Shown: piece by piece, positions 11,580 to 39,612 of the stretch
Position numbering within the stretch: the stretch's first letter is position 1
Layout of the letters: the number at the start of each line of letters is the position of its first letter
Source: a virus
Taxonomy: Duplodnaviria > Caudoviricetes
Reading direction: 5' to 3' (one strand)
Virus record (IMG/VR): IMGVR_UViG_3300037991_003035
Coordinates: 1 to 52,946 of that record
Length of the DNA: 52,946 bases
Translations under genes and position numbers: made by a program
Notes under the pieces: generated by a model
Databases searched by the model: none
What the model was told of the DNA's origin: nothing
What the model saw: only the letters and a program-made list of their open reading frames with translations

Positions 11580-11622
11580 AACTTATGTATAACCCATGTT
11601 ATTTCCAAGAAAAATTATAGCA
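11580..11622 (-). promoter_or_regulatory. Tandem sigma70-like promoters for the late arm
   Basis: Extended -10 TGCTATAAT (11622-11614); TTGGAA (11608-11603), 17-nt spacer, TAAGTT (11585-11580). Confidence 0.55.
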
Positions 11623-11731
11623 TTTTGAAATGGACCTATATATACACACACACCCCCGTGCAGTGGGGTTATGATATATAACGATTACGTTAGAATTAGA
11701 TTAATATTAATATAGATTAAAGGAGACGACT

Positions 11732-25287: not shown

Positions 25288-28262
25288 TCTTCCATCTTAT
25301 CTAATACTTTAAGAACATCACTGCTATAATCTAGATATTGTCTTTCAGTCTGTTTCAATTTAGGCATAGTACCTTCAGCGGTTTTTATCATTCTTTTAAT
25401 AAAATCAGGATACTCAACTTCAAAAAGTCCTAAGTCTAAAGTAAATCTGTCTTTTTCTTTCTTAGGATACATACTAAATGTATTTCTACTTATTGCCGCC
25501 ATCTTACCATCAAAGGTTTTTGAAGAAGTAAATTGAGGACCAGTCTTTGTAAAAAGTCTTCTACCTTGTTCACCTCCAATAAATGGAAGAGGTGTAGCAA
25601 ATTGTATTTTTTGTAGCATAGTTAAATCTTGGTCTTTTTCTGCTGCATAACTTAAACCTAACAAAAAGTTTGCTGTATCATTATTTTGAATTACTCTATC
25701 TATACCAGTAATAGACATAAAATCTAATAAAGTATCAACAGTAGGTCCTAGATTACCAGCAACTGGACCTCTACCAAAATATTTTTGCATAAGTTCTTCT
25801 CTATTTTCTTCAGCAAATTCTTCTGGATTAGCTAAACTAGCAAGTTTTTCTAGTTCTTCATATGCTGCGTTTTCAACAATATTACCAGCATTTCCATTTA
25901 ATAAATCTCCAAAGGTTTCTATCATTAAGTATAAACCACCAAGTCTTGTCATTCTTCCAACAGCATCAGAACGTAATTGACCAGAAGCTACATCTCCTAG
26001 ACCTTGTTCTATCATTTTTTTCTGCATAATAAAATTACTAAACACATAATGTTTAAACTGTAATATCAATGAACCAACTTTACTTGTTTGTGCAAAAGAT
26101 TTTTGTGTTTGACTATAGTCATAATGTAAAAATGTTACAATGTTATCAGCATGTCTTTGTGCTAATCTTTGTCTATATTTATCAAATTCTAGTTCAAACT
26201 CAGTACGCTCTCTACCTAACAATTCATCTTGTACAGTTTTCGTTTGCATATCAGATATTTGTTTTTTACTAAAACTACTACCATCTTTATTTTTTAATTG
26301 TCTTTTAAATCTTTCTCTTAATACAGATAAAGTAACATCGTTTTCTTGTCTTATCCATTCTTGAGTATAAGCAAAATCATAAGTAGTGTTTCTATTAATT
26401 TGATTTTCTACTGTTTGCATAAGTTCACCAGAACCTCTAGCTATTCTACTCATACCACTATCTATACTATCTATTATACCATCGTGAGTAGCATTTCTAT
26501 AAAAACCATCTTCTCCTTTTACTATTGGCATATGCATATCTGCATAAGTTTCTTGAATGTTTACATTAAATACACCACTTCTTTTTCTACCAGCAATGAT
26601 TCTTTTTCCTAAATTTTCTCTAGTGTTTTTTATATTTCTCAATTGAGCCATACCTAATGCTCCAAAATAAACATAATTAAATGTCCATTGTGATGCATTT
26701 TTAATAGCTGTTTTAAGGTTCCAACCTAGTTTAGTTGCAAATTGATAGTTAGTAGCTATACGAACCAACTTGTCACTAAGAGTATTATAATCTCCACTTG
26801 ATTGTGTTTCAAACAATCTATGCATATACTTTGTTAACATATCTACTGATTTGTCAAATTTTTCATATTGTAATGGCTGGTCTGGGTTAAAAGGTCTTCT
26901 TGCTTTAAGCGCAGCTACCTCACTTAACGCAACCATATATGCATTTGCGTTATCAATAGTGTGTAAAAACTTTACAGTATTTTTATTATAAGATTCTAAT
27001 ACTGGAAATATATTAAAATCTTGTTTTGCAGTTCCAATATCAGTATTAATTTTACTAGCTGTATATAAATTATTTTGCATGATTTTATCTAAAGCTAAAA
27101 AACCATCCATGGCTTCATCTATTTCAGCTCCTTTACCAGAAAACATTTTGTAAAAATTACCTTCTATTTGTGGTAATACTTCTAATGTTAGTAAAGGTAA
27201 AATACCACTATCTTTTCTTTTTATTCTACCAGCAAAATCTTTATTTAATCTTTCTAAAACACCTAATACTTCTTCATATCTATGATGACTTTTAATATTA
27301 CTATCTTTAGTATTTTTTAATAAACTAGATAATTTGTCAACACCTTCAATTACATGTCCATCTCTTTTAACCATTAATGCTCTAAATTCTTCAGCTGCAT
27401 CTAATGTAGAAGGATGTATTCCATGTATTCTTTCAAATTTTTTGGCATCATTTTTTGCTAATTTTTTTAAATCATCAAATTTTTTACCTCCCATTAGCGT
27501 TAGTTTACTAAAATCTGCAAATACTTTTAACTCACCTTCCTTTGTTAAATAATCTAAAGAATTAACATAAGCTTTTCCACCATCTCCAGTATTAGCTAAT
27601 TTATCTGGTTTACCTTTTTCGTTACCACGAATATAATATTCTTGAGCAGCTGCTGGACCTGTAGCTCCATCAAATTCTTCTTTACCTTCTGCAATTCTTC
27701 TCCATCTATTTTGCATAGTAACAAGTTTATTTCTTAAAGTAAAACCTAGTTTAGCATCAATAACTTTACCAACATTTCCTATAGTAAATTCATTACTAGC
27801 AATTTTCATTTTACCAATTATAGATTGTATAGTTCTATCCCCTACTACTTGTCTACCATTAGCTCTTGTATTAGAATCTAAAATCTCTTGAAAAGCTTTT
27901 TTCATTGTAGGATTAGTTTTAAATATTTCAGATTTTAAATAAAAATCAGTAGTTCTAGTTAAACCTAAATTAGTTCCTGGAATAGATTCTAAGTTTTTTA
28001 TAAATTCTTTTTGTAATCTTTTTTGTACTTTTAATTCTTCAATAGTTGGAACTTCATATTCACCAAAGCCTTTACCACGTGTAGCTTCAAATTGTAATTC
28101 AGAATACATATTACTTATTTGAGAATCGCTATATTGTCTAACCAAAGGATTAGAATAAAATTCTTTAGCTAGTTTTCTATCTGAAGCAATTCTTCTTGCT
28201 AAATCACGATTTAATCTAACGTCTCTACTAAAAGGTGCGCATACTTTATCTACTATTGACAT
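25284..28262 (-). CDS. Large internal virion/ejection protein (992 aa)
   Basis: LGWNLKTAIKNASQ and LHYDYS...LILQFKHY resemble podovirus ejection-protein C-terminal regions; last gene of the late arm. Confidence 0.65.
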   Translation of the reverse strand: MSIVDKVCAPFSRDVRLNRDLARRIASDRKLAKEFYSNPLVRQYSDSQISNMYSELQFEATRGKGFGEYEVPTIEELKVQKRLQKEFIKNLESIPGTNLGLTRTTDFYLKSEIFKTNPTMKKAFQEILDSNTRANGRQVVGDRTIQSIIGKMKIASNEFTIGNVGKVIDAKLGFTLRNKLVTMQNRWRRIAEGKEEFDGATGPAAAQEYYIRGNEKGKPDKLANTGDGGKAYVNSLDYLTKEGELKVFADFSKLTLMGGKKFDDLKKLAKNDAKKFERIHGIHPSTLDAAEEFRALMVKRDGHVIEGVDKLSSLLKNTKDSNIKSHHRYEEVLGVLERLNKDFAGRIKRKDSGILPLLTLEVLPQIEGNFYKMFSGKGAEIDEAMDGFLALDKIMQNNLYTASKINTDIGTAKQDFNIFPVLESYNKNTVKFLHTIDNANAYMVALSEVAALKARRPFNPDQPLQYEKFDKSVDMLTKYMHRLFETQSSGDYNTLSDKLVRIATNYQFATKLGWNLKTAIKNASQWTFNYVYFGALGMAQLRNIKNTRENLGKRIIAGRKRSGVFNVNIQETYADMHMPIVKGEDGFYRNATHDGIIDSIDSGMSRIARGSGELMQTVENQINRNTTYDFAYTQEWIRQENDVTLSVLRERFKRQLKNKDGSSFSKKQISDMQTKTVQDELLGRERTEFELEFDKYRQRLAQRHADNIVTFLHYDYSQTQKSFAQTSKVGSLILQFKHYVFSNFIMQKKMIEQGLGDVASGQLRSDAVGRMTRLGGLYLMIETFGDLLNGNAGNIVENAAYEELEKLASLANPEEFAEENREELMQKYFGRGPVAGNLGPTVDTLLDFMSITGIDRVIQNNDTANFLLGLSYAAEKDQDLTMLQKIQFATPLPFIGGEQGRRLFTKTGPQFTSSKTFDGKMAAISRNTFSMYPKKEKDRFTLDLGLFEVEYPDFIKRMIKTAEGTMPKLKQTERQYLDYSSDVLKVLDKMED

Positions 28263-31200
28263 CTATTTACCTCTTGCCTTTACACATTTTTTACCAATTC
28301 TTTCATATCTAGCTTCATTCCATTCCATAAAATTACTTTTTGTTCTATTAACAAATGGTTTATCGCTAGGTATCAAGCCGCTATTTACATCTTCAAACAC
28401 ATAAACTCCTTTATCTATTGCTTCATATATTGCTGCAATTCCATTTACTCTATAATCTCCTCTACCAGCAAATTCATGAGCAATCAAACTATCTCCAACT
28501 AGACCACCTTTACGTGCTACACTTCTATATAAACCTGTACCTATACCAATATAAAATTGTTCGTAATAACTTAATCTACTCATACCGCTTTGGTTTATTT
28601 CATCTTGCAGTATATTAGTCATTCTTAATACACTATCATTATGTGTGTTTCCATATTCTGTAAAAGCACGAAACGCTTCTTGATTTCTTATAAATACTTT
28701 ATCTGATACTACAGATTCTAGGTTTGGTTTTTTACCATTAAGAACATCAACGACATCTCTACTTGTTTTAGCTAAATCTTTATTGAATTGTAAAGCTTCT
28801 GTTTTTTGATTAAATATATCTACTCTATGACTATTATTAAATCGTATTGCTAAGTTAATACGTTTAGACAAAGATTTATCATCTGATACAAATAAATATT
28901 TACCATTAAATTCTACAAATTTACCTGATTTTATATCTATATCAGGAGACATAATTCTACTTAGTACTATATCTATTTTATCAGCTAAACCATTTTCTTG
29001 AATAATAAGATATAGTTGTCTATCAAAATCATATTGTAAACTATCGTAGTCTTGGAATCCATATAATTTGCTTGTTCCATTAGTAGTTTCATAAAATTCT
29101 TTTTTATATTGACTAACAAAGTTATCTATTAATTTACTTTGTGCTTCTGTAATTTGTAAACCAGAACTTGCTATTCTTTGATTTAATACTCCAGCTGTAC
29201 TTCTACCTACAAATTCTGATAAGGTTTCTTCATACTTTCTTGGCTCTGTAATAAAATCTTTCATTTTTTCATTAACTAGCTCTCCTAGTTTTTTGTCAGA
29301 TAATTTTCCATGTTTATCATATATTTTTTTTATTCTAGCAACTAATTCTTTTTTAATATTTTCATCAAGGTCTTTAAATAGTTTGTTGTTTATTTCTTGT
29401 TTTAGTTCAGAATATTTTTTATCAAAACCTTTAGTTCTAGATGAATAATATTTAATTAAAGCATCTCCACTAAAATCATCTTCCCCATATTCTAATTTTT
29501 TACCAGCTTGTAATTCTTTTAATTTATCTAAATCAGAAAAATATTGTTCTTCAATTGCTTGTAATTTTATAGATGCATCGTGATAATTTTTTACGCCTTT
29601 AATAATATTTTCTGTTGCCTCACTAGCATCATCCATAAATTGAAAAGCTAATGTTTCAAACTCAGGTCCTTGATAGTCTAATCTATCTTTAATTTGTAAT
29701 TTATTAGCTGTAGTGTTTTGTTCATATAAAGAGCGTAACAATACATTTTGATAGTCTCTAGGAGATACATTTTTTAAATTTAAAGCGTTTTCATATGCTT
29801 TAGAACTTACTTGTCCAGCTAATCTCATAGTAAAACTACTATTAATATTATGTCCTCCAAAATCTAATTCATATAAATCTTTATACAAATCATCCCAAGC
29901 TTTTTGTCCTTGTCCTGCAGATTGACTTAAGATTAATTTTTTCATTTTTGCTTCAATAGATTGTTTAGCTAATGCTAAATCTTTATCGTAATTATCAATA
30001 ACCTTTACTCTTCTACTTGGACTAGCACTTCTTTTTCTACCTGTACTAAATTCACCACCACTATCTCTTAAGTATGTACTAAATATATTTACATATTCTC
30101 TTACAGCAAACATTTCATGGGGTTGAAATTCATCTGCTAACTTTAGTCCTTCTCCATCTACTCTTTCAAATATACCATCTTTACTAAAAAACAAATCATT
30201 CATAATAGTAGTTTTGCTTCCAAGTTTTTCTATATTATAACCACCAGTAGATATATCTAATGCTTTTTGATTGTACTCGTCTACTTTTGCTCCTATAATA
30301 GGGTCAATATTTTCTTTTACTCTTATATAAGTATTTTTTCCTATTTGCATAACAAGACCATTTGTTGGAAAAGGTTTTCCTCCTACGCCAGGAGTTCTAC
30401 TTTGTGTAGCTGTTAAAAATCTTAATATTTCAGGAAAGTTCATACCAGTTCCTTTAATTACAGCTTCATTTAATTTAGAGTTTTGTAATTCTGCAAACTT
30501 ATCTGAATCAGTAAGTGAAAAACCTTTATAATTATCAGGAGAACCTAGTGTATCTTGTGTATACATTTTTTTACCTAACAAATTATTAAAACCTTTCCAA
30601 ACATCTGCTGGTTGTGAGTACATACTTATAGTATCATCTATGTCGTAATCACCTTTTAACATATGAATAACATCTCCACTTGCTACAACTTTTTTATTTT
30701 TTTCTGATATACTTCCTATATCTTTAATTCCTTCTATAATAACACTACCTAGTCTTGTAATTGGATTTCTATAAGTTAAAGATGCTACCTGTACATCATC
30801 TACAACTTCAAAATAATCTACCAAGTCTTTTAATGTACTACCTTTTTTTGGTTTGTTTCTAACTAAATCGTCTAATTTTTTTACAGAAGAAGGAGTAAGT
30901 CCTTTTCTTAGTTCTTGGTCTCTCATTACATCTTTTAATTCAGTAATGTGTACAAGTCTATCTACGTCATTTTTATCTTTTAAAATTATAGCAAAATTAT
31001 CAACGTCTATTTCAGTTTGACCAGCATAATAAGACTCAGTAGTTTCACCATAACGTATAACACCTGTTTCATCTGCTATCATTGATTTTAATGAACCAGT
31101 AATATCTGGTTGTATAACTGCATTGTTACCGTGCTTAACCTTTGCATTTAAAACATATTCATCTGCAAACATATCAAAGTATTTATCATAAAACAAATAA

Positions 31201-34200
31201 GGGTCTACCCCTTCTTTTGCAAGTGATTGTAATACTCCAGGTTGAGAGTCTCTTAAATTTGTATCAGCATTTAGTTTATTACTATTTTGTTCAGTAAGAT
31301 ATAAAAAGTCTTCTATTGCTCCAGTTCTATCTGAATTATTCATATTTTTAGCTTTAGTATTATATGGTCTAATATTTTGTGTATAGTTATAAGAAACAAA
31401 TGCATTTAATGCCTCATCACCATTTTCAGCAAATGTTAAAAATCCTGTTAAATTAGGAGGCAACGCACCAGATTTTTTACCTTTACTAGACAATAAAGAT
31501 ATATCATTCATATTAAATTGAAATGAATTTGTGTCATCGAATGTTCTGTTAAAATCTTTTGCGGTATTAGGACTAAATATTCTTGAAGTTAAATCTGAAT
31601 TTATACCTTTAACTAAATCTTTTACACCACTTCTAGCTATAAAAATTATATTTTGTTGGTTTGCAGCCGTCATCATTTCTTGTGGAAAGTTTTTTGCACC
31701 TTGGTTTGGTATGTGTAATCCAGCTGTTTTCATTAACGCTATTTCATCTCCAACATCTTTATGTCCAATGTATTTTACACCAGACAATTCGCTAGTTTGA
31801 TTTAATGGAGTACCTAATAACATAGCTTCTAAATCATATAAATCAGTGGGTTTCATAGATGCTGCGTCTAATATACTTACATCTTCTTGTCTAAGTCTTT
31901 CTCTTCCTGCATCATATATTCTTTGGTCTCTTGCACTTAATGCATTATACTCTGTATCACTTAATTCTTTTTCTATATCTATATTAAATTCATCTTTGTA
32001 TTGTTTTATATCTCTTTTTCGTTGACTAAACATATCATTAATAGTTCCATCAGGTAATTCATCTTCAACTATTACAAATTTATAATCACCATTTACAACT
32101 TTATTTATTGTTGTTGCAACTTTGTTTAATGTAGGGTCTTTTGTGTCTTTTATAAATTCGCCTATTTGTCTCAATTGGTCACTATCAATATTTTTAGCTG
32201 ATTTGTTGTCATGTAGTTTAAATCTTTTTAGTGATTTAAATTGTTCTTCATCTGTTGCATTTCTTAAAGCTAACCATGTTTTTTCACCTAAACCAAATTC
32301 CATAGCTTTTTTACCATATGTTAAATCCATCATCATAGGTTGTATTAATTGAGTTATTTTTTTACCACTTATACTACCATCAGGATTTTTAGGTACTGCG
32401 TCAATGTCAAAAATATACTTTCCAGTATCTTCGTGTTTTCTTATATAAAAGTTTTCTTGTAATCCATCTAAAGCATTCTTACCCAGATTCTTTTTTCTCC
32501 ATTTTACATATCTATCAGCTATTTCATCTAATGCATCTATACCAGCTTTTTTATTTGTATCATTTATTCTAATTACAATATTTGTTTTTTCATTTAATCT
32601 AATTAAGATACCTTTGAAGCTTTCTAAATCTATATCATTTTCATCAAATTCTTCATCAATTCCTTTTTTTAAAGCTCTATTGCTTTTAAACCTATGATTA
32701 CCTGTTGCTAAATCATTTGCAATTTGATAGAAAAATTCATTATCATCTAAAGTTCTGTTTGCTCTATATACATTGTTAGCAAAACCATTATTGTTCATAA
32801 TAACTATTTTATCAGCTAAGGTACCATCTTCAAATATACCTCTTAAACTTTTTAATAATAAATTTTCTTGATATTGAAAATCTTCATAATTGCTAAATCC
32901 TCTACTACCATCGTATGTTACAGTTTTTAATACAACTCTATTTTCTAAGTTTGCACCTATAGCAATTAACTCTTGATTTAATTTTTCAACATCTACAAGA
33001 GGATTTGTTTCTATAATATTTTCACGCAATCTTTGTAAAAATACTTTAGTATGTGTTCTATTTCCGTTATTATCTACAAATCTACCATCATCTTTCATAA
33101 CTGAATATTTAGCATCTAAGTACTCTTTTATATTTACAGCATCTTTTGCTTTCTTAAAATGTTTACCTATAATAATACTATCTTCTCCATACTCAATTAA
33201 TAATTTAGAAATAGTGTTTGGAGATTCACTTAATTCTCTACTATGATTTAAATCAAAGTCTAACAACATTTCTTCTTTATCTTTTGGAGCCATCATATCA
33301 TCTATAATATTTCTTTCTTGTTCCGCAAATAATTGTTTCATTTTATCTTGATATATTTTTTCTGAAGAAATTGAATCATCAATTTTTTGCATTTCTTTCC
33401 AACTACGCAACTTTCTTTCGTTACTTAAAAATCCAGCTGTATTTAAATGGTTATAAAATTTTCTAAATTTATCATCACTATTTTCTATGTATTTTAATAT
33501 TTTACCTATAGTATCAATATTATCTGCTTCTAAATCTTTTACTTGTTTTTTTAGTGATTGAGCAAACATATTCATGTTGTCGTTATATTTTATAGTTTTA
33601 ATTTTTTCTATAGATTTTTTTAAACTATTTAATGTATTTATATCTTTAAAATACAGTGAACTATCTGTTACTTCTGTTAAATGTCCTGTCGTTATACCAT
33701 TTTCTGTTTTAAGTATATAAGGTTTAATAATTTCTTGAACTTCCATTATTAATTGTTTAGCTGCTTTATCAGCTTGTGATGCACTTAAATTATTATCAGA
33801 TTTAATTGTGTTTATAAAACTTGTTAAAAATTTTTTTGATTCACCAGATTCATAATCTTCTAAAAATTTTAAAAAATTCACTCCTTTTTGATGTTGACTA
33901 ATATCTAAGTCTGCTAAAATTCTTATATCCATGTGAATAGTATTAGAACTTCTTCCTTTAATTAAACTAAACTCTTCAAATGTTTCTAATATTGCTCTAT
34001 CTACATTAGTGTAAGATTGTAAATTTCCATCTACATTATATCTTTGATATTTTATCCATTGATTTTTCCATTCTAAATCTCCTATAAATGTTAAAAATGG
34101 AATATTAGGTCTATCTTTCATTCTAGAAAAAATACCAAAATCTTGTTCTACAAATAATTCTCTTAATTCGTTTACTTGAGCATTAGTTAATTTTTTTCTT

Positions 34201-37040
34201 TTTGTTTGTTTAACTAAATCATCTGCGCCTTGTTTTCTTAATAAAGGTAATAGACTTTTAACAAAGTTTTGATTTTGTTTACTAAGCTTAGAAATGTCTA
34301 CATGGCTTTCTAAGTATTTATATATACCATCTTCAGCAAATATTTCTTCTATTTTTGTACGAATTTTAGAATGTTGACTTCCAAACTTATCATCGTTTAA
34401 TACATTGTCTACAAACTTTACAAGTCTTTCAGAATTGTCTAAAGATTGCATCATATCTCCTATGTGATACATAAATTCATTATTAAAAGATAGTTTTCCT
34501 TTTGGAAGATTATTGTTAGATGAAAACAATTCAGCTCCACCATCTAATAAACTTTTAATGCTTGATAAGAATTCTCCTTTATCAGTTAAATCACTATTTT
34601 TAATTGACACTTTATTTGCACCCGATGCTTTAATTTTTCCAGTTCCATATTTTATAACATAATCTACGGCACGTGTTAGTTCTGTAAATAAAGCTTCTCC
34701 TTCAAAATCATCTAAATCTAATTCAGCACCTTTTCCAATTCTTTTTAAAACAAATTGGTCATTTCCATATTCTTTACTTCTAGTTTTTACAGGTTTATAA
34801 GCATCAGGCAATTTATTATATATATCTAATATTTGATTTTCCATTTCTTCTATGGTGCCTTTAAAATTTTCTATTACTGGTTTAGCATAGGTTACAATTA
34901 AATCTCTTGGATTATCAGGTCTAACATCTAATCCTTTCATAGTATCACTAAATAATTGTACTTGGTCAGCAGTTAATTCATCAAATGTTTTAAAGGTGGT
35001 TTTTTTAGTAGTAAAATTAACATTATCATACAACATAATAAAATCTTGATATAAACTTCTTAAATTATCTACATCTTCTATAGCATTAACTTTATCACGT
35101 TCATCTTTTTTTATTTTCTTTTCTTTACCACCAACGTCTTTTAAATAATCATTTTGAATCATACCCCTGATAGTGTTTGCAGTTGGAGAGTTTTCGTCAA
35201 TACCAGCCATTCTCATACCTTCTATACCTGCTGTAGCGTTGTTGCTAATTAATTGTCTTCTAATATGATTATATATTGGATGGTCTATGTGTACTCCTAT
35301 AGCATCACCTAATTGTACTTGTTCTTTTATATGTTGAAATCTATCTCCAATTTTTTCTTCCCAAGGAGTTGTAGTGGTTGTCCATTCAGATGTTCCATCT
35401 CTTAAAGGTCTACCTTTATATGTCATTTTGTGACCACGTTTAAATAAGAAATATCCTAACACAGCTGTCATTTTCCAATTATCTTCATCTATAGATTGTC
35501 CAAAAAAGTAAGGAGATGCACCAGCCATTCCTAAAATAAATGCTCCAGCACCTTGTCTGAATTTAGTTTGTGCAAAATCTTGAAGAATTAATTTACCATA
35601 ATCCATACGAGCTGCGTTAATGTTTACAGACTTAGCTACACCATTAAGAGATAATTTCATATACTCAGCTGCTGCTTCAGCTCTTTTAATATCTATTTCT
35701 GTTGCACCTTCTTGAGCTCCACGTATTACTAGTTGTTTTAAATCATGTGGATTTTTTTTACCTTTTAACAATGTATCCATTTCTTTAGGCAATAATTTTC
35801 CTGCTTGTTCCATAGCGTGTAATACTGCAGGTTGGTGCATTCTTGCATATAACATATAAGCTGAAGTAACATCTTCACGAGATTTTTGAGCAACTTTTGT
35901 TGTTCCTTTAACATTTGTGCCTTTATAATAATTTCCATTATTTTTCATTAAACTAGCTATAGTATCTCTAGCTTCTTTATTCATAATGCTTAATGGACCT
36001 TTTGCTAAACCTCCTGGTATAAATCTAACACTAGCAGCTGCTGGACCAAACAATAATGCTTCAGCTAACATTTGTTTACCAGTATAAGGATTTTCTTCAC
36101 CTCTTATATTTCTAGAAGCCATCCAAGCTCCTTCTACCATAGTGTAATATAAAACGTCTTCTGCTGCATGACCAAACCAAATATCAGCTTTACTATATTC
36201 TTTCATACCTAATTTTCTTAATGGATTAAATTCTGTTAATAAATCAGGTAATGTGTTTATTGGTTTAAAACCTTCACTCCAATATTTACTTGCTTTTTTA
36301 TTAATTTCTTCAACAACGCTATTAACTATTCTTCCACTTTTATCTTTTGTTGCTCTACCAAAAGTATATCCTAAATCTTTACCAACTTTTTCTAAGTAAT
36401 TTCCAATACCATCATTGAATTTTTTTTGTACTTCTTCTGGTCCAAAACGTTTGCCGTAAAATCCAGCTCTTCTGGTATCGTCAAAATTGTTAACTGCTTT
36501 AAATAAATCATCTGAAGCGGCTACTTCATTTATAAATTTTTCAGCACTAATCTTTTCACTACCTTTCATAATAGTGACTCCACCTCTAGTTAGTGCTCCT
36601 GTTGCAATATCTTTTATATTATCAGTCGCATTAATTTGTTTTAAAATTTTAGTTTTACCTAAAGCTGTTCCTTTAGCTGCTTTACCTAGCCCTTTAATAC
36701 CCATTAAACCAAGTTTACCTACACCAACATAGGGAGTAAAAAACCCAGCTAAATTACCTAAAGCGTATGCATTACTATTTCTATTTGCATCTATACCTAA
36801 ACGACTTCCATCTGCAAAACCAAAACTTGCACTTTCAATTGCACCTCCTGCAAAATTTTCTAATGTTTGACCTATTCCTGTGCTTTTAATTGGTGATACA
36901 AATTTTCCTTCATCTGTTGTAGCGCTAGATAATGATTGTGATAAGCTTGTACCTAATGAATCAAGCATAGTTAATTCATTTGTTTGAGCTTGATTTTGAT
37001 TTCGTTCAGCTCGTAACTTTTCAAGTAACGTTTGTGCCAT
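28263..37040 (-). CDS. Giant (2925 aa) putative virion-associated two-barrel RNA polymerase / ejection protein
   Basis: YRNP (R2091) 40 aa before GDYDIDD (D2131-D2135, nt 30650-30636); upstream D1725...K1756...K1771...SGVK; downstream QKALDIS. Confidence 0.75.
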   Translation of the reverse strand: MAQTLLEKLRAERNQNQAQTNELTMLDSLGTSLSQSLSSATTDEGKFVSPIKSTGIGQTLENFAGGAIESASFGFADGSRLGIDANRNSNAYALGNLAGFFTPYVGVGKLGLMGIKGLGKAAKGTALGKTKILKQINATDNIKDIATGALTRGGVTIMKGSEKISAEKFINEVAASDDLFKAVNNFDDTRRAGFYGKRFGPEEVQKKFNDGIGNYLEKVGKDLGYTFGRATKDKSGRIVNSVVEEINKKASKYWSEGFKPINTLPDLLTEFNPLRKLGMKEYSKADIWFGHAAEDVLYYTMVEGAWMASRNIRGEENPYTGKQMLAEALLFGPAAASVRFIPGGLAKGPLSIMNKEARDTIASLMKNNGNYYKGTNVKGTTKVAQKSREDVTSAYMLYARMHQPAVLHAMEQAGKLLPKEMDTLLKGKKNPHDLKQLVIRGAQEGATEIDIKRAEAAAEYMKLSLNGVAKSVNINAARMDYGKLILQDFAQTKFRQGAGAFILGMAGASPYFFGQSIDEDNWKMTAVLGYFLFKRGHKMTYKGRPLRDGTSEWTTTTTPWEEKIGDRFQHIKEQVQLGDAIGVHIDHPIYNHIRRQLISNNATAGIEGMRMAGIDENSPTANTIRGMIQNDYLKDVGGKEKKIKKDERDKVNAIEDVDNLRSLYQDFIMLYDNVNFTTKKTTFKTFDELTADQVQLFSDTMKGLDVRPDNPRDLIVTYAKPVIENFKGTIEEMENQILDIYNKLPDAYKPVKTRSKEYGNDQFVLKRIGKGAELDLDDFEGEALFTELTRAVDYVIKYGTGKIKASGANKVSIKNSDLTDKGEFLSSIKSLLDGGAELFSSNNNLPKGKLSFNNEFMYHIGDMMQSLDNSERLVKFVDNVLNDDKFGSQHSKIRTKIEEIFAEDGIYKYLESHVDISKLSKQNQNFVKSLLPLLRKQGADDLVKQTKRKKLTNAQVNELRELFVEQDFGIFSRMKDRPNIPFLTFIGDLEWKNQWIKYQRYNVDGNLQSYTNVDRAILETFEEFSLIKGRSSNTIHMDIRILADLDISQHQKGVNFLKFLEDYESGESKKFLTSFINTIKSDNNLSASQADKAAKQLIMEVQEIIKPYILKTENGITTGHLTEVTDSSLYFKDINTLNSLKKSIEKIKTIKYNDNMNMFAQSLKKQVKDLEADNIDTIGKILKYIENSDDKFRKFYNHLNTAGFLSNERKLRSWKEMQKIDDSISSEKIYQDKMKQLFAEQERNIIDDMMAPKDKEEMLLDFDLNHSRELSESPNTISKLLIEYGEDSIIIGKHFKKAKDAVNIKEYLDAKYSVMKDDGRFVDNNGNRTHTKVFLQRLRENIIETNPLVDVEKLNQELIAIGANLENRVVLKTVTYDGSRGFSNYEDFQYQENLLLKSLRGIFEDGTLADKIVIMNNNGFANNVYRANRTLDDNEFFYQIANDLATGNHRFKSNRALKKGIDEEFDENDIDLESFKGILIRLNEKTNIVIRINDTNKKAGIDALDEIADRYVKWRKKNLGKNALDGLQENFYIRKHEDTGKYIFDIDAVPKNPDGSISGKKITQLIQPMMMDLTYGKKAMEFGLGEKTWLALRNATDEEQFKSLKRFKLHDNKSAKNIDSDQLRQIGEFIKDTKDPTLNKVATTINKVVNGDYKFVIVEDELPDGTINDMFSQRKRDIKQYKDEFNIDIEKELSDTEYNALSARDQRIYDAGRERLRQEDVSILDAASMKPTDLYDLEAMLLGTPLNQTSELSGVKYIGHKDVGDEIALMKTAGLHIPNQGAKNFPQEMMTAANQQNIIFIARSGVKDLVKGINSDLTSRIFSPNTAKDFNRTFDDTNSFQFNMNDISLLSSKGKKSGALPPNLTGFLTFAENGDEALNAFVSYNYTQNIRPYNTKAKNMNNSDRTGAIEDFLYLTEQNSNKLNADTNLRDSQPGVLQSLAKEGVDPYLFYDKYFDMFADEYVLNAKVKHGNNAVIQPDITGSLKSMIADETGVIRYGETTESYYAGQTEIDVDNFAIILKDKNDVDRLVHITELKDVMRDQELRKGLTPSSVKKLDDLVRNKPKKGSTLKDLVDYFEVVDDVQVASLTYRNPITRLGSVIIEGIKDIGSISEKNKKVVASGDVIHMLKGDYDIDDTISMYSQPADVWKGFNNLLGKKMYTQDTLGSPDNYKGFSLTDSDKFAELQNSKLNEAVIKGTGMNFPEILRFLTATQSRTPGVGGKPFPTNGLVMQIGKNTYIRVKENIDPIIGAKVDEYNQKALDISTGGYNIEKLGSKTTIMNDLFFSKDGIFERVDGEGLKLADEFQPHEMFAVREYVNIFSTYLRDSGGEFSTGRKRSASPSRRVKVIDNYDKDLALAKQSIEAKMKKLILSQSAGQGQKAWDDLYKDLYELDFGGHNINSSFTMRLAGQVSSKAYENALNLKNVSPRDYQNVLLRSLYEQNTTANKLQIKDRLDYQGPEFETLAFQFMDDASEATENIIKGVKNYHDASIKLQAIEEQYFSDLDKLKELQAGKKLEYGEDDFSGDALIKYYSSRTKGFDKKYSELKQEINNKLFKDLDENIKKELVARIKKIYDKHGKLSDKKLGELVNEKMKDFITEPRKYEETLSEFVGRSTAGVLNQRIASSGLQITEAQSKLIDNFVSQYKKEFYETTNGTSKLYGFQDYDSLQYDFDRQLYLIIQENGLADKIDIVLSRIMSPDIDIKSGKFVEFNGKYLFVSDDKSLSKRINLAIRFNNSHRVDIFNQKTEALQFNKDLAKTSRDVVDVLNGKKPNLESVVSDKVFIRNQEAFRAFTEYGNTHNDSVLRMTNILQDEINQSGMSRLSYYEQFYIGIGTGLYRSVARKGGLVGDSLIAHEFAGRGDYRVNGIAAIYEAIDKGVYVFEDVNSGLIPSDKPFVNRTKSNFMEWNEARYERIGKKCVKARGK

Positions 37041-37043
37041 ATT

Positions 37044-38462
37044 TTATTTTGTTAAATGTTGATTTATTAAGTCTTTTAAAAATGCATATTTATTTATTGC
37101 TGGGTCTGCTGAATCTTTATGTGCAATTTTATACAACTTTACAGATTCACTATTTAAATTAGCATTTGGACTCATTTGTTGATATTTGTTGATATTATCT
37201 ACTGCTATTCTTTCTAATATACCAGCTTCTAAATTAGCATTTTCTTCTAAAGCTTGAACTTTCTTTAAAGCTTCCATTAATTCTTTTGTGTCTAATTTAA
37301 AAATATCTTCAGTTATTATATTTTGACCTTCATTACCAACATTTGTAAATATTTTATTATACATAGACCCATATTTACTTTCTTTTTTATTAAATATTGC
37401 GGCTAATTCTGCATCGCTAAATACACTTGAGATATTGCTTTCTAATGTTAATCTATCCATATAATCATAGCCGTCAACATTTGCTAAAGTAAGCGTACCG
37501 TCGTCTTGTTGTACTTTTTCAACCAATGAACTTAAATTAGTTAAAGCATTATTTATTTCTTTATTATCTTTTTGTTCGTTATCGTATAATCTATTTGCTT
37601 CTATATCAAAAGCTTTCACAACATCAAATTGAAATTCTGGTAAAGGTTCAAATGTATCAATTACCATTTGTTCAGATTTACGTGCACTTAATATTTTTCT
37701 TTCATTGTCATCAATTTTTTTAATTATTTCAGTACCTTGTACTAAACGACCAATATTATGATTAGCAGATTGAATTGCTTTTCTATTGTTCAAACTATTT
37801 AAAATTACATTACCTTGTTCATCTCTTTCTAAATCAGGTCCATATAATCCTATGTTAGCAAAAGCTCCTTCATATTTATCTAAAAAACCACTATCTATAA
37901 TATCATCAAAATAACCAGAAACAATATTTGTAGCAGTAGGATTTAATATATATTGTGAAAAAGTTGCATAAAATTCTTTAGCTTGACCATCAGTAAATCC
38001 TTTGCTTTTTAAATGGGCAATAGTGTCTGCTCTATAATTTTGATTATTAAATGTTTGTTCTGTTAAATCTTGTTGTTGAGTTGGAAATGAAGTTCCTTCA
38101 GGTGGGTCAGTTTTTAATGCAACTTGAAACAAAGGTTCTACTGAAACCATAACATCAGCAATTTCGTCTTTTATATCTGTAAGATATTCATCTCTTTGAC
38201 TTTTTAACGCTGTAAGCAAATTTTGTTGCAACTTATCTCTTTCTAAAAACTCTTGATTGCTTTTTTGTATGTCTACTTGCTTATCAAGTGCGTTTGCTCT
38301 TTGTTTTTCTATTGCTAAACTTTCCATTTCTCTTAAAGCAGCTTCTCTTCCTCTTACATCTGCACCAGCAGCTTCTAATAGGTTTAATGCTTGTGCTTCT
38401 TCAGCTCTTCTTTCTCTAGCGTCAGCGTCTTGTATTGATTGTATTATGTCTAATATTGCCAT
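37044..38462 (-). CDS. Putative ejection/internal virion protein (472 aa)
   Basis: Coiled-coil N-terminus, no Cys; immediately upstream of the giant gene. Confidence 0.55.
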   Translation of the reverse strand: MAILDIIQSIQDADARERRAEEAQALNLLEAAGADVRGREAALREMESLAIEKQRANALDKQVDIQKSNQEFLERDKLQQNLLTALKSQRDEYLTDIKDEIADVMVSVEPLFQVALKTDPPEGTSFPTQQQDLTEQTFNNQNYRADTIAHLKSKGFTDGQAKEFYATFSQYILNPTATNIVSGYFDDIIDSGFLDKYEGAFANIGLYGPDLERDEQGNVILNSLNNRKAIQSANHNIGRLVQGTEIIKKIDDNERKILSARKSEQMVIDTFEPLPEFQFDVVKAFDIEANRLYDNEQKDNKEINNALTNLSSLVEKVQQDDGTLTLANVDGYDYMDRLTLESNISSVFSDAELAAIFNKKESKYGSMYNKIFTNVGNEGQNIITEDIFKLDTKELMEALKKVQALEENANLEAGILERIAVDNINKYQQMSPNANLNSESVKLYKIAHKDSADPAINKYAFLKDLINQHLTK

Positions 38463-38464
38463 CT

Positions 38465-38980
38465 TTAACTCACCATCCTATTTGCAAGATTTGATAAAAA
38501 TCCTCCACTTTTCTTTAAACTTTGATTTTGTCTTTTTCTTTTTTCTATATCAGCTTCAAGAGCACTAATTCTATTTAAAGAAGCTAATCTTTTATTTTGT
38601 ATAAATTTTTCTGTTTTCATAGTTAAAGCTTGAAGTTTATTTCCATAGTCTTGTTGTGTTTGCGCTTCTAATTCATCTAACATTTCTTCTTGCTCACCAT
38701 CAAACATAAAACCACTAGGATTACTATCTCTGCTTTTATCAATTTTATCTAAACTTCTTCTAACAGGTTCGCTTAAACTATCTATAGCAAATTGTTCATC
38801 TTCTTCAGCGGCTTCTATACTAAATTGTAAAGCATCTTCTTCTTGTCCTATTGCTTCACGATTAGTTTTTATAGCTGCGTTATTGTTTGATATTGTTCCA
38901 CTTGATATACTACTATCTGTAGCTGCTCCTGTTACATCTTCTAATATTCCTAAGCCATATGCTAATTTCTTAAATAACAT
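38465..38980 (-). CDS. Putative small ejection protein (171 aa)
   Basis: Amphipathic ends with a helical core; position in the ejection block. Confidence 0.5.
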   Translation of the reverse strand: MLFKKLAYGLGILEDVTGAATDSSISSGTISNNNAAIKTNREAIGQEEDALQFSIEAAEEDEQFAIDSLSEPVRRSLDKIDKSRDSNPSGFMFDGEQEEMLDELEAQTQQDYGNKLQALTMKTEKFIQNKRLASLNRISALEADIEKRKRQNQSLKKSGGFLSNLANRMVS

Positions 38981-39612
38981 TATTTATTTTCCTTTTTTCT
39001 AAATATTCCAAAGTTAAACATGTCTAAAATATTTGTTGGTTTTGGTGTTCCGTCTACTGTAAAATCAAATTCTGGTTTAAAATTTAAATCGTAACCATCG
39101 TTATAACCTATTACTTTACCATCTTTATCTTTAATAGCTAAATTATCCATCATACTTTGATAAACGCCTTTAAATTTATTTGATGAAGATAAATAGTCTT
39201 TCATAGTTCTAAAATCTGCATCACTAAATTCTACACCTTGTTTATTGACATTAATAGTTTTTCCTATGTCCATTAAACTTTTTCCATATTGTTTTCTATT
39301 TGCAATATCAATAGTTACTTCAGTTAATTTTGCATCTTCATTATCTTTATTTAATTGGTTGTATAAATCTTTACCAATCATAGCATCTCTTTTTTCTGCG
39401 TCTAATTTGTCAAACTCGTCTACAACATTAAACAATTTTAAACTACCTTTAGCAAAAGCATCAAATCTTTTTTGTCTATTAGTTTTGTCTAATGTGTCCA
39501 TTTTAGTATCAAAATCTAAAAGCTTAGTTTCTTGTTGTAAATCAAACGACTTATTAGAAGCTTCGGTTGCTCTTTCTCTAGATGATTTTATAGGTTTTTT
39601 ACTTTGATACAT
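38980..39612 (-). CDS. Putative internal virion protein (210 aa)
   Basis: First gene of the ejection block; GAGG RBS. Confidence 0.5.
   Translation of the reverse strand: MYQSKKPIKSSRERATEASNKSFDLQQETKLLDFDTKMDTLDKTNRQKRFDAFAKGSLKLFNVVDEFDKLDAEKRDAMIGKDLYNQLNKDNEDAKLTEVTIDIANRKQYGKSLMDIGKTINVNKQGVEFSDADFRTMKDYLSSSNKFKGVYQSMMDNLAIKDKDGKVIGYNDGYDLNFKPEFDFTVDGTPKPTNILDMFNFGIFRKKENK

What the first reader, a model, noticed from the sequence alone, without database searches (positions are those of the whole stretch)
28263..37040. crAss-type single-chain two-barrel virion RNA polymerase in a ~51-kb phage with non-Bacteroidota expression signals
Seen: Y-R2091-N-P, then 40 aa later G-D2131-Y-D-I-D2135. 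Upstream are D1725...K1756...K1771 and SGVK; downstream is QKALDIS. About 1600 aa precede the core, including G/A-rich hydrophobic segments. Known: two-barrel polymerases use R-x-P...DxDxD plus two lysines in the second barrel, and the phi14:2 virion polymerase gp66 has DFDID. Bacteroidota largely lack SD-led genes and TTGACA/TATAAT promoters, both common here. Inference: an ejected RNA polymerase fused to a translocation domain, in a compact lineage infecting a different phylum and taking ~17% of the genome.
Basis: partly seen in the sequence, partly recalled or inferred. Interest (0 to 1): 0.85.

Follow-up and report, generated by a model that had tools for sequence, protein, structure and literature searches.

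The report
Giant phage-borne two-barrel RNA polymerase
A 2925-residue gene in a roughly 51.5-kb uncultured phage encodes a single-chain RNA polymerase of the same structural kind as the virion polymerase of crAss-like phages, but from a separate, rare sequence family in a phage whose genes use ribosome-binding signals that Bacteroidota phages lack.

Summary
ORF 28263-37040 (minus strand) encodes 2925 aa with YRNP at 2090 and GDYDID at 2130. R2091, P2093, G2130, D2131, D2133, I2134, D2135, K1756 and K1771 are invariant in 17 of 17 relatives, some only 15-24% identical.

An AlphaFold2 model of residues 1600-2440 (pLDDT 81.1, pTM 0.83) matches only two-barrel RNA polymerases at the top: phi14:2 gp66, QDE-1, P23-45 gp96 and P74 gp62. 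The best named viral matches are crAss-like proteins.

Profile comparisons find no sequence homology to crAss polymerases. TerL, portal and capsid are not crAss-like by BLASTP. It is therefore a new family of a known kind.

Shine-Dalgarno use is confirmed: 47 of 69 genes, against 4 of 44 in phi14:2. Sigma-70 promoter enrichment is not (77 sites found, 73 expected).

Packaging and ejection are inferred, not shown.

One new point: the giant has a single cysteine, at its extreme C-terminus, and the next protein has a single cysteine at its N-terminus. The same junction-cysteine pattern is present in phi14:2, crAss001, crAss002 and FpV4. This suggests disulfide-linked cargo chains.

The parts
28263..37040 (-). 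Giant ORF, 2925 aa (P0001): putative virion RNA polymerase with long N- and C-terminal extensions
   Evidence: Full-length relatives of 2814-2975 aa appear, and as open frames of 2887-3116 aa in the loci. The start lies 3 nt after the stop of the upstream gene.
29721..32243 (-). Polymerase core, residues 1600-2440, as modelled
   Evidence: AF2 model m9e86514140ea, pLDDT 81.1, pTM 0.83. Foldseek against PDB: 6vr4_A E 2.2e-7, QDE-1 E 4.4e-6. VIA-align: QDE-1 Z 15.7 over 454 aligned residues, gp66 Z 11.9 over 574 aligned, model 8-841 against gp66 895-1807.
31482..31862 (-). First barrel (beta-like DPBB), about residues 1727-1853, carrying invariant K1756, K1771 and K1807
Evidence: Strands at model residues 128-254. 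The lysines are invariant in 17 of 17. Boundaries are approximate.
31155..31445 (-). Helical connector between the two barrels, about residues 1866-1962
   Evidence: Helices at model 267-363. gp66 and QDE-1 have a connector of about 140 residues between their barrels (bioRxiv 10.1101/2020.03.07.982082, passages seen). The equivalence is inferred.
30552..31145 (-). Second barrel (beta'-like DPBB), about residues 1966-2163, carrying the catalytic motif
   Evidence: Model 367-564 aligns with the beta'-type barrel of archaeal, Pol I, Pol III, AR9 and PhiKZ polymerases at Z 8.6-8.9.
30762..30773 (-). YRNP (R2091, P2093 invariant)
   Evidence: A local profile alignment places it on gp66 YRIP 1321-1324.
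30636..30653 (-). GDYDID (D2131, D2133, D2135): predicted Mg-binding triad, with Ile rather than Gly at the fourth position, as in gp66 DFDID
   Evidence: P0010, which HMMER found without any motif pattern, has GDFDID. The gp66 aspartates are each essential in vitro (paper passages).
28284..28286 (-). C2919, the only cysteine of the giant protein, 7th residue from the C-terminus
   Evidence: In 16 of 17 homologues one Cys lies in the last 1-8 residues. 15 of these have no other Cys. L011's stop-to-stop frame has a second at position 2, probably before the true start. The exception, L006, is cut by a contig end and has no Cys.
25284..28262 (-). Downstream 992-aa protein, last gene of the late operon; its only cysteine is residue 8 (codon 28239-28241)
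   Evidence: 8 of 8 relatives have a single Cys at residue 3-16. The position is equivalent to phi14:2 g065, annotated 'RNA polymerase associated protein'. No Pfam, PHROG or PDB sequence match.
37044..39612 (-). Three cysteine-free genes upstream (472, 171 and 210 aa), tightly packed with the giant gene; putative further cargo or ejection proteins
   Evidence: Only 25-33% identical, or undetectable, in relatives whose replication genes are 75-88% identical. No family matches.
11589..11668 (+). Single-copy conserved non-coding element plus CCCCC-N6-GGGG hairpin, upstream of the first rightward (early) gene; candidate early promoter or regulatory site
   Evidence: 86-88% identical in relatives whose giant protein is only 23-29% identical. 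Unique in the window. Function not tested.

Best explanation
The 2925-aa protein is a single-chain two-barrel (double-psi beta-barrel) DNA-dependent RNA polymerase of the gp66/QDE-1 clade. The core occupies residues about 1600-2440. A beta-like barrel (K1756, K1771, K1807) comes first, then a helical connector, then a beta'-like barrel (R2091-x-P ... D2131-Y-D-I-D2135). This part is shown by fold prediction and conservation.

The core sits inside a giant, almost cysteine-free protein encoded at the end of the late (virion) operon of a podovirus-like phage of about 51.5 kb. The rest is inferred. The protein is packaged as cargo and threaded out through the tail at infection. It then transcribes the first phage genes before or without the host polymerase, as gp66 does in phi14:2. 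It is held to the downstream 992-aa protein by a disulfide between C2919 and that protein's Cys8. That bond would break in the reducing cytoplasm.

The family is sequence-distinct from crAss polymerases. It occurs in a small group of 51-56-kb phages with SD-led genes, so their host is probably not a member of the Bacteroidota.
For: **Fold.** The model has pLDDT 81.1 and pTM 0.83.
- Foldseek against PDB gave 31 hits at E<=1e-3, and all 50 listed rows are two-barrel RNAPs. The top are gp66 6vr4_A (E 2.2e-7, TMq 0.45) and QDE-1 (E 4.4e-6).
- VIA-align against 48,161 chains gave 17 chains with Z>=8. Ranks 1-19 are all two-barrel RNAPs: QDE-1 Z 15.7/454 aligned, gp66 11.9/574, P74 gp62 11.6, ZmRDR2 11.5, P23-45 gp96 11.4.
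- In BFVD the best named hits are crAss-like phage proteins, at E 3.4e-11 and weaker.

**Active site.** R2091, P2093, G2130, D2131, D2133, I2134, D2135, K1756 and K1771 are invariant in 17 of 17. The motif window is the most conserved part of the protein. A local profile alignment puts YRNP..GDYDID on gp66 YRIP..SDFDID (P 0.005, against 0.23 for the reversed control).

**Virion role (indirect).**
- The gene lies in one tightly packed minus-strand operon, downstream of the tail-fibre gene and a weakly matched virion structural gene (phrog_3287, E 5.6e-4).
- The layout large protein, then polymerase, then one large protein, then a strand switch to replication genes matches phi14:2 g067-g066-g065. 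All three of those are annotated from virion mass spectrometry.
- No other polymerase-sized gene was seen among the 28 ORFs of at least 150 aa.
- Cysteine content is 1 in 2925 aa, against 0.53% genome-wide.

**Junction cysteines.**
- Giant protein: a Cys in the last 1-8 residues in 16 of 17 homologues, and the only Cys in 15 of them.
- Downstream protein: a single Cys at residue 3-16 in 8 of 8.
- phi14:2: gp67 has only C1797 of 1797, gp66 has C3 and C2179 of 2180, gp65 has only C3.
- crAss001: gp47 has only C2339 of 2341, gp50 has C5, C1334 and C2404 of 2412, gp49 has only C5.
- FpV4: gp32 (4287 aa, DYDID at 3116) has only C4286, and gp33 has C3 and C1461.
- Of 120 crAss polymerase homologues, 114 have a Cys in the first 10 residues, 115 in the last 10, and 104 have none in between.
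- Disulfides do exist in crAss001 virions (PMC10172136, passages).

**Complex prediction** (giant 2650-2925 with the 992-aa protein 1-300): weak support.
- Scores were 0.51, 0.51 and 0.34, and the best of 3 controls scored 0.00.
- Calibration: the mark was reached by 58 of 80 solved complexes and 2 of 110 mismatched pairs.
- At 0.60 or under, only 7 of those 80 passed, as did both of the passing mismatches.
- The runs agree in at least 18% of contacts, and the partner pLDDT is at least 56.

**SD use.** 47 of 69 genes here, against 4 of 44 in phi14:2.
Against: - No proteomic, transcript or biochemical datum exists for this phage or any relative. Packaging, ejection, template and timing are all inferred.
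- There is no sequence-level homology to crAss polymerases: hhalign probability 0.19%, E 0.32; hmmsearch best E 0.12 among 123 proteins and 0.26 among 17 in the reverse direction.
- The alignment behind the model has only 17 rows. Residue-level superposition of the aspartates and lysines on a solved active site could not be done, because the tools return ranges only.
- The first, shallower model (pLDDT 64.2) left the DYDID region below pLDDT 50.
- The N-terminal 1600 aa and C-terminal 485 aa have no assigned fold.
- Podovirus morphology is inferred from a P22-type portal and an SU10-type capsid protein. No tail-tube or tape-measure test was possible, so a tape-measure fusion as in P23-45 is not excluded.
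- The 11 loci were found with a pattern containing GDYDID, so their motif conservation is partly ascertained. P0002-P0007, P0010 and P0012-P0015 were not found that way.
- The complex prediction is only a weak pass.
- Terminal cysteines could serve something other than a disulfide.
Confidence: 0.75

Rival explanations
1. An active two-barrel RNA polymerase that is not packaged. It would be made during infection and would transcribe middle or late genes from inside the cell, like SPbeta YonO or P23-45 gp64.
For: - The fold evidence is the same as for the best explanation, and P74 gp62, a non-virion enzyme, scores Z 11.6.
- Sigma-70-like sites are not enriched in the early arm, so a phage polymerase could serve more than the earliest genes.
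Against: - The gene sits at the distal end of the late virion operon, not among early genes. An enzyme made only late cannot start the infection cycle unless it is carried in.
- Non-virion enzymes are compact (P74 gp62 chain 592 aa), whereas this protein carries about 2100 extra residues.
- Extreme cysteine depletion and the junction-cysteine pattern are shared with proteins of phi14:2 annotated from virion mass spectrometry.
Confidence: 0.12
2. A structural ejection or tape-measure-like protein whose polymerase-like domain is a catalytically dead relic, kept for DNA or RNA binding or as a scaffold.
For: - Most of the protein (about 2100 of 2925 aa) has no polymerase assignment.
- The module evolves fast: 23-41% identity, where DnaB is 75-88% identical in the same phages.
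Against: - All three aspartates, the RxP arginine and proline, and three barrel-1 lysines are invariant in 17 of 17 at 15-47% identity.
- The motif window is the most conserved segment, which is the signature of a maintained active site.
- gp66, which has the same DxDID variant, is active, and each aspartate is required.
Confidence: 0.05
3. A two-barrel polymerase with another main job: RNA-templated synthesis as in QDE-1 and RDR enzymes, or priming of DNA replication, rather than promoter-driven early transcription.
For: - QDE-1 gives the highest VIA Z (15.7), and plant RDR2 also ranks high (Z 11.5).
- gp66 transcribes only single-stranded or denatured DNA in vitro, and no common motif was found upstream of its early transcripts (paper passages).
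- No primase or DNA polymerase was identified among the ORFs scanned. Not every small ORF was scanned.
Against: - The differences in Z among QDE-1, gp66, gp62 and gp96 lie within what the tool calls close. Foldseek ranks gp66 and crAss-like proteins first.
- The phage is a dsDNA virus with no known RNA template.
- The module layout and cysteine pattern match the crAss virion polymerase module, whose role in early transcription has been shown experimentally.
Confidence: 0.08

Closest known systems
gp66 of Cellulophaga phage phi14:2 and the crAss-like virion RNA polymerases (PDB 6VR4)
   Same: - Single chain with a beta-like barrel, a helical connector and a beta'-like barrel.
- Top Foldseek PDB hit (E 2.2e-7) and VIA Z 11.9 over 574 residues.
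- YRxP about 39-40 aa before G/S-D-[FY]-D-I-D, with Ile instead of the cellular Gly.
- Giant size with long unassigned flanks.
- Gene near the end of the virion operon, followed by one large protein and then the convergent replication arm.
- Near absence of cysteine except at the termini.
   Different: - No profile-level sequence homology.
- The phage backbone is unrelated by BLASTP: TerL E 0.058, portal E 0.73, capsid E 2.7.
- The genome is about 51.5 kb rather than about 100 kb.
- About 1600 rather than about 890 residues precede the core.
- There is no N-terminal cysteine and no separate gp67-like partner.
- Genes are SD-led (47 of 69 against 4 of 44).
- The family is rare: 10 hits among 1.84 billion representatives, against 636 or more for crAss in a different search.
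gp32 of Flavobacterium phage FpV4 (Fipvunavirus), a 4287-aa virion structural protein
   Same: Found with the gp66 core by tblastn. It carries DYDID, the same variant as here. It has a single cysteine at the penultimate residue, and it is followed by a protein with Cys3 and then a strand switch. This is the same fused-upstream arrangement as in this window.
   Different: No tblastn match to the giant protein at E<=1e-3 in the phage collection that holds FpV4. The genome is 88 kb, the host is in the Bacteroidota, and the protein is 1360 aa longer.
QDE-1 of Neurospora crassa and plant RDR2 (RNA-silencing polymerases)
   Same: Highest VIA Z (15.7, rmsd 5.3, 454 aligned; RDR2 Z 11.5), and the same barrel order in one chain.
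   Different: These are eukaryotic cellular enzymes of about 1000-1400 aa with RNA-templated activity. They have no virion context, and sequence identity in the structural alignment is 11-14%.
gp96 of Thermus phage P23-45 (polymerase fused to the tail tape measure) and its non-virion paralogue gp64 / P74 gp62
   Same: Phage single-chain two-barrel polymerases. gp96 is delivered with the virion as part of a giant (5002-aa) protein (bioRxiv 10.1101/2022.12.01.518664, abstract and passages). VIA Z is 11.0-11.6.
   Different: - In gp96 the polymerase is at the N-terminus of a tape measure in a long-tailed siphovirus.
- Its motif is DFDGD.
- Here the portal and capsid genes are podovirus-type.
- No second polymerase gene was seen here.
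N4 virion RNA polymerase gp50 (Schitoviridae)
   Same: A functional analogue: a giant (about 3500-aa) polymerase packaged in a podovirus and ejected with two other proteins to transcribe early genes (abstracts of PMC13434306 and PMC12633501).
   Different: The statement that N4 is a T7-like, right-hand single-subunit enzyme is recalled, not tested here. Here the core is fully accounted for by the two-barrel fold, and Pfam finds no family at all.

Membership tests
Two-barrel (double-psi beta-barrel) RNA polymerase superfamily | Two DPBB domains forming the catalytic core | tested here: met
   The model has pLDDT 81.1. Ranks 1-19 of 48,161 chains are two-barrel RNAPs, followed by isolated DPBB domains on model 367-550. 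All 50 listed Foldseek PDB rows are such polymerases. This rests on a predicted structure, not a solved one.
Two-barrel (double-psi beta-barrel) RNA polymerase superfamily | DxDxD metal-binding motif in the beta'-like barrel | tested here: met
   D2131, D2133 and D2135 are invariant in 17 of 17. They lie within model 367-564, which aligns with beta'-type barrels. The motif sits between helix 522-529 and strand 537-541 of the model.
Two-barrel (double-psi beta-barrel) RNA polymerase superfamily | Conserved lysines in the beta-like barrel | tested here: inconclusive
   K1756, K1771 and K1807 are invariant and lie in the segment that aligns with gp66 902-1107. Residue-by-residue equivalence with the catalytic lysines of solved enzymes could not be read from the tools.
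Two-barrel (double-psi beta-barrel) RNA polymerase superfamily | Mg-dependent, template-dependent RNA synthesis | not testable with these tools
   Needs expression and an in vitro assay.
crAss-like virion RNA polymerase family (gp66-type) | Detectable sequence or profile homology to gp66 orthologues | tested here: not met
   hhalign of the 17-row against the 24-row core alignments: probability 0.19%, E 0.32. hmmsearch: best E 0.12 of 123 and 0.26 of 17. Only a 50-column motif stretch aligns, at P 0.005.
crAss-like virion RNA polymerase family (gp66-type) | DFDxD-type motif with a non-glycine fourth residue | tested here: met
   DYDID in 16 of 17 and DFDID in P0010. Of 113 crAss homologues with a DFD.D match, 108 have DFDID and 5 DFDVD. 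FpV4 has DYDID.
crAss-like virion RNA polymerase family (gp66-type) | Presence in the virion (mass spectrometry) | not testable with these tools
   There is no cultured member. Only position in the late operon supports it.
crAss-like virion RNA polymerase family (gp66-type) | Phage belongs to Crassvirales (shared TerL, portal, capsid) | tested here: not met
   BLASTP against phi14:2: TerL E 0.058, portal E 0.73, capsid E 2.7. The capsid protein matches Pfam SU10_MCP and the portal matches P22_portal. These were pairwise tests only, so a very deep relationship is not excluded.
   see the full report.
N4-type (T7-like) virion RNA polymerase | Right-hand single-subunit polymerase domain | tested here: inconclusive
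   No such chain appears among the listed matches, and there is no Pfam match at E<=1. The flanks outside 1500-2600 were never folded.
Tape-measure-fused polymerase (P23-45 gp96 type) | [quoted passage not shown] | tested here: inconclusive
   The fold resembles gp96 (Z 11.0-11.4). Portal and capsid are podovirus-type, and no tail-tube, sheath or tape-measure family was hit in the PHROG scans. Tail morphology is not established.

The most novel reading that the evidence does not exclude
The ejected-polymerase module is older and wider than Crassvirales. It carries a previously unremarked device: the polymerase and its partner cargo proteins are joined head-to-tail by disulfides between cysteines placed at their extreme termini. 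Every other cysteine has been purged. The set would leave the capsid as one long thread in a fixed order and would be released by reduction in the cytoplasm. Where two partners are fused into one gene (this phage, FpV4 gp32, crAss002 gp33), the junction cysteines are absent in the first two; in crAss002 gp33 this was not checked. Where the partners are split (phi14:2, crAss001) the junction cysteines are present. In this lineage the module also diverges far faster than the tail and replication genes beside it, which would suit a target of host defence.
Probability: 0.35. Interest if true: 0.85.

Novelty: new variant of a known kind. Interest (0 to 1): 0.72.

Why it matters
**Wider distribution.** Virion-delivered two-barrel RNA polymerases are known from crAss-like phages of Bacteroidota and, fused to a tape measure, from Thermus phage P23-45. 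This finding adds a third lineage. It is sequence-unrelated, has half the genome size of crAss phages, has a different capsid and portal type, and uses ribosome-binding signals typical of other phyla. Carrying one's own cellular-type polymerase therefore looks more widespread than the crAss group. It also gives another deep branch for the question of whether these single-chain enzymes, and the eukaryotic RNA-silencing polymerases, come from phages.

**A testable delivery mechanism.** The junction-cysteine pattern is shared across four cultured crAss-type phages, 120 crAss homologues and this family. It points to a simple mechanism for ordered protein ejection that can be tested directly in phi14:2 or crAss001.

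**A compact enzyme.** The core of about 840 residues is also a candidate for a new orthogonal transcription enzyme.

Tried and rejected
**Sequence searches of the giant protein.** All gave nothing: Pfam at E<=1, PHROGs, PDB by phmmer, PDB by a family profile (3 chance hits at E 0.087-0.36), and tblastn against 50,697 phage records.

**First structure.** It gave only one Foldseek hit at E<=1e-3. I replaced it with a deeper alignment and a shorter segment.

**Host.**
- A scan of 185,579 species genomes for relatives found none; 81 pattern matches, none confirmed.
- Tail-fibre and DnaB searches in cultured phages gave only 27-31% matches spread over many hosts.
- There are no tRNAs.
- The endolysin is a 130-aa single-domain protein (phrog_465). 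I take this as a weak hint of a Gram-negative host and do not rely on it.

**N-terminal 'translocation domain'.**
- No shorter homologues; the only hit was a fragment of the same protein.
- The Atlas gave leads only, with scores at or below 0.92, recognition below the stated mark, and P22 gp16 at 0.85.
- The 992-aa neighbour gave leads only: unnamed viral clusters at 0.98, then clusters carrying LPD39 (0.96) and LPD38 (0.93).

**Neighbouring and other genes.**
- Neighbours and relatives' neighbours had no PHROG matches.
- No PDB sequence matches for the 519-, 405- and 992-aa proteins.
- BLASTP of the giant and its neighbours against phi14:2 gp65-gp69 gave nothing below E 0.2. The best hit was a 33-aa glycine-rich stretch, giant 91-123 against gp67 169-200, at E 0.21, which I do not count.
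- Rfam found nothing in the window.

**N4-type polymerase.** I considered this and set it aside, because the core is fully explained by another fold.

**Literature.**
- Searches for DYDID, DFDID/DFDxD and two-barrel phage polymerases found no paper describing this family.
- A search for crAss cargo, disulfide and cysteine, plus the passages read in PMC10172136, showed no mention of terminal cysteines.
- The 23 polymerase families compared in the P23-45 paper are listed only in its supplements, which were closed. This family, or the cysteine pattern, may be covered there or in papers outside the library.

Full report
**What the window is.** The window is a whole virus record of 52,946 bp, estimated 99% complete. 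Its two ends, 1-1405 and 51533-52946, are direct repeats of 72-86% identity spaced about 51,532 bp apart. The genome unit is therefore about 51.5 kb, and the record runs once around into a diverged second copy.

Genes fall into three strand blocks.
- A minus-strand block holds the small and large terminase, a 130-aa endolysin, a P22-type portal (Pfam E 9.5e-50), a possible scaffold gene and an SU10-type capsid protein.
- A plus-strand block, 11732-25063, holds recombination and replication genes: Cas4-like exonuclease, Sak annealing protein, DUF932, a methyltransferase, DnaB and a resolvase.
- A long minus-strand block holds a 1590-aa tail fibre, several unassigned virion-type genes and then the giant ORF. 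It ends with a 992-aa ORF that converges on the replication arm.

There are no tRNAs and no Rfam matches.

**The observation.** ORF 28263-37040 (minus strand) encodes 2925 aa.

By itself this means little. In 5000 shuffles, 75% have at least one DxDxD, and 2.5% have RxP followed 30-50 residues later by DxDxD. Conservation carries the weight.

The family is rare.
- A full HMMER pass over 1.84 billion representatives with residues 1500-2600 gave 10 hits at E<=1e-3, six of them long proteins.
- A word-indexed search of 5.8 billion clusters gave 6, including the query.
- A pattern scan of IMG/VR gave 11 loci.

In the 17-row alignment A3, with identities to the query of 15-47%, the invariant residues include K1756, K1771, K1807, R2091, P2093, G2130, D2131, D2133, I2134, D2135, Q2258 and D2262. 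The 11 IMG/VR loci were found with a pattern that included GDYDID, so their motif is partly ascertained. Their RxP 40 residues upstream was not part of the pattern and is present in 11 of 11. P0010 was found by HMMER alone and has RQP...GDFDID. The stretch 2101-2150 is the most conserved part of the protein.

**The fold.** A first model of residues 1500-2600 from 11 sequences was mediocre, at pLDDT 64.2. Even so, its only Foldseek hit at E<=1e-3 was gp66 of phi14:2. A second look aligned model 116-358 with gp66 902-1107 at Z 10.2, rmsd 5.7, 177 residues.

A second model covered residues 1600-2440 and used 17 sequences. It reached pLDDT 81.1 and pTM 0.83.
- Foldseek against 350,542 PDB chains gave 31 hits at E<=1e-3. 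All 50 rows listed are two-barrel RNA polymerases. They are led by gp66 (E 2.2e-7, TMq 0.45) and QDE-1 (E 4.4e-6), then RDR2, the Pol I, II and III largest subunits, AR9 and a poxvirus enzyme.
- An independent aligner run against 48,161 representative chains gave 17 chains with Z>=8. Ranks 1-19 are all two-barrel polymerases: QDE-1 Z 15.7 (454 aligned), gp66 Z 11.9 (574 aligned, model 8-841 on gp66 895-1807), P74 gp62 11.6, maize RDR2 11.5, P23-45 gp96 11.4 and 11.0. Cellular and viral largest subunits then align on model 367-564. After these come isolated double-psi beta-barrel domains.
- Against predicted viral structures, the two best hits are unnamed UniProt entries (E 1.5e-31 with TMq 0.77, and E 2.4e-22). 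These are presumably members of the same family. Among the hits that follow, the named ones down to rank 23 are almost all proteins of crAss-like phages, from E 3.4e-11.

The order of parts is barrel 1 with the lysines, then helices 267-363, then barrel 2 with RxP and DYDID. This is the order in gp66 and QDE-1, whose barrels are joined by a connector of about 140 residues (passages of bioRxiv 10.1101/2020.03.07.982082).

**Family membership.** The protein works like gp66 but is not a sequence member of that family.
- The gp66 family is large: 636 proteins at E<=1e-5 among 8000 candidates scored, and none of the 120 listed is from this family.
- Profile-profile comparison of the two cores gives probability 0.19%.
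- HMM searches in both directions give nothing better than E 0.12.
- Only a 50-column stretch aligns, in the expected register: YRNP...GDYDID on YRIP...SDFDID, with P 0.005 against 0.23 for a reversed control.

The P23-45 paper says the same of two-barrel families in general: there is little similarity beyond the DxDxD region (section 9). The phage backbone is also unrelated to phi14:2 by BLASTP. The TerL finds only matches of about 23% in diverse podoviruses and others.

**Evidence bearing on a virion role.** This is indirect.
- The giant gene lies in a tightly packed operon with gaps of 0-3 nt to its neighbours. It is downstream of the tail fibre and a weakly matched virion structural gene, phrog_3287 at E 5.6e-4.
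- In phi14:2 the order is g067 (1797 aa), then g066 (the polymerase), then g065 (1421 aa, 'RNA polymerase associated protein'), then a strand switch to replication genes. All three are annotated from virion mass spectrometry. The window shows the same picture: three small genes, the giant, the 992-aa gene, then the switch.
- Among the 28 ORFs of at least 150 aa, no other could be a polymerase.
- In phi14:2, gp66 makes the early transcripts in the presence of rifampicin, and the host enzyme makes the middle and late ones (passages). I infer the same division of labour here.

**Junction cysteines.** I tested this and extended it.

In this family:
- The giant has 1 Cys in 2925 aa, against 0.53% over all called genes. 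The three upstream proteins have none.
- Among 17 homologues of the giant, 16 have a Cys within the last 1-8 residues, and in 15 of them it is the only one. L011's stop-to-stop frame has a second Cys at position 2, probably before the true start. The exception, L006, is cut by a contig end and has none.
- The downstream protein has exactly one Cys, at residue 3-16, in 8 of 8 phages where it was recovered.

The same logic holds in crAss-type phages:
- phi14:2: gp67 has only C1797 (its last residue), gp66 has C3 and C2179 of 2180, and gp65 has only C3.
- crAss001: gp47 has only C2339 of 2341, gp50 has C5, C1334 and C2404 of 2412, and gp49 has only C5, although gp47 lies on the other strand.
- crAss002: gp32 has only C2019 of 2020. 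It is followed by a 4245-aa fused protein with C35 and six others.
- FpV4: gp32 is a 4287-aa fused protein with DYDID and only C4286. It is followed by gp33 with C3 and C1461.
- Of 120 gp66 homologues, 114 have a Cys in the first ten residues, 115 in the last ten, and 104 have none in between.

The simplest reading is a head-to-tail disulfide chain of cargo proteins. Disulfides are present in crAss001 virions (PMC10172136, passages), but those passages do not mention these termini.

A complex prediction of the giant's last 276 residues with the first 300 of the 992-aa protein gave weak support.
- Scores were 0.51, 0.51 and 0.34, and the best of three controls scored 0.00.
- The mark was reached by 58 of 80 solved complexes and 2 of 110 mismatches.
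- At 0.60 or under, only 7 of those 80 passed, as did both passing mismatches.
- At least 18% of contacts were shared between runs, and the partner pLDDT was at least 56.

The disulfide is an inference. The pattern itself is an observation.

**Fast evolution of the module.** One search gives these BLASTP identities to the window in four relatives:

| Relative | DnaB | Methyltransferase | 405-aa tail gene | Giant | 992-aa protein |
|---|---|---|---|---|---|
| L002 | 77% | 75% | 81% | 41% | 48% |
| L005 | 76% | 76% | 65% | 29% | 39% |
| L007 | 88% (82-aa fragment) | not in locus | 55% | 23% | 28% |
| L008 | 76% | 76% | not in locus | 25% | 29% |

The three small upstream genes are 25-33% identical or undetectable. 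The cargo block is thus a hot spot of divergence inside an otherwise conserved backbone.

**Expression signals and host.**
- SD cores precede 47 of 69 called genes, against a background of 7-9%. With the same test, 4 of 44 annotated phi14:2 genes have one. This supports a host outside the Bacteroidota.
- The promoter claim is not supported in 10500-26000: 77 sites found against 73.0 +/- 7.8 expected.
- No host could be named.

**A possible start point for early transcription.** At the head of the early arm there is a single-copy element, 11589-11668. It consists of about 55 conserved bases followed by a CCCCC-N6-GGGG hairpin whose loop varies. It is 86-88% identical even in a relative whose giant protein is 23% identical. 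It does not look like a sigma-70 promoter. It is a candidate start site or control site for the injected enzyme, untested.

**Verdict.** The finding is a new, rare sequence family of a known kind of enzyme, in a new phage lineage.
- Polymerase fold with an intact site: about 0.93.
- Packaging and ejection: about 0.7.
- Disulfide relay: about 0.35.

The literature searches found no description of this family or of the cysteine pattern. The supplements listing the 23 known two-barrel families were closed, so prior description cannot be excluded.

Noticed in passing
window 1-1405 and 51533-52946: The two ends of the record are direct repeats of only 72-86% identity, spaced about 51,532 bp apart. 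The record seems to run around a circular or permuted genome into a diverged second allele. The cause could be strain mixture or a real duplication. The 288-aa and 292-aa ORFs, 449-1315 and 51978-52856, are the two versions of one gene.
   Followed up: partly
window 11589-11668 (+): A single-copy conserved non-coding block followed by a CCCCC-N6-GGGG hairpin, just upstream of the first rightward gene. It is 86-88% identical in relatives G001, G002 and G005, although their giant proteins are 23-29% identical. It may be an early promoter or control site.
   Followed up: partly
window 25284-39612 compared with L002, L005, L007, L008: The block from the 210-aa gene to the 992-aa gene is 23-48% identical or undetectable between relatives. 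Their flanking tail genes are 55-81% identical and their replication genes 63-88%. This is a sharply bounded fast-evolving module.
   Followed up: partly
L013/L014/L015 (phi14:2), L016/L019 (crAss001), L017 (FpV4), L018 (crAss002): In cultured crAss-type phages the polymerase and its partner cargo proteins carry cysteines almost only at their extreme termini. These are placed so that the C-terminus of one faces the N-terminus of the next. Where genes are fused (FpV4 gp32), the junction cysteines are missing.
   Followed up: yes
L017:5123-17986 (Flavobacterium phage FpV4 gp32): A 4287-aa 'virion structural protein' of an 88-kb phage not classified in Crassvirales. It matches the gp66 core by tblastn and carries DYDID at 3116. 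The DYDID variant therefore also occurs among gp66 relatives.
   Followed up: partly
window 12803-13782 and 20329-20782 (+): Two long stretches of the early and replication arm have no ORF of 40 aa or more and no Rfam match. Parts are conserved in relatives at 78-95%. phi14:2 likewise has two long intergenic regions that are transcribed early and strongly (paper passage).
   Followed up: partly
window 6147-6539 (-): The endolysin is a 130-aa single-domain protein (phrog_465, E 1.3e-36; no Pfam match). It lies between the terminase and portal genes. The lack of a wall-binding domain weakly hints at a Gram-negative host.
   Followed up: no
window 44503-49275 (-): The 1590-aa tail fibre has an Mtd_N-like N-terminus and a C-terminal S74 intramolecular chaperone domain. 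Its best phage match is an uncultured marine virus from a single-cell genome, at 28.7%.
   Followed up: no
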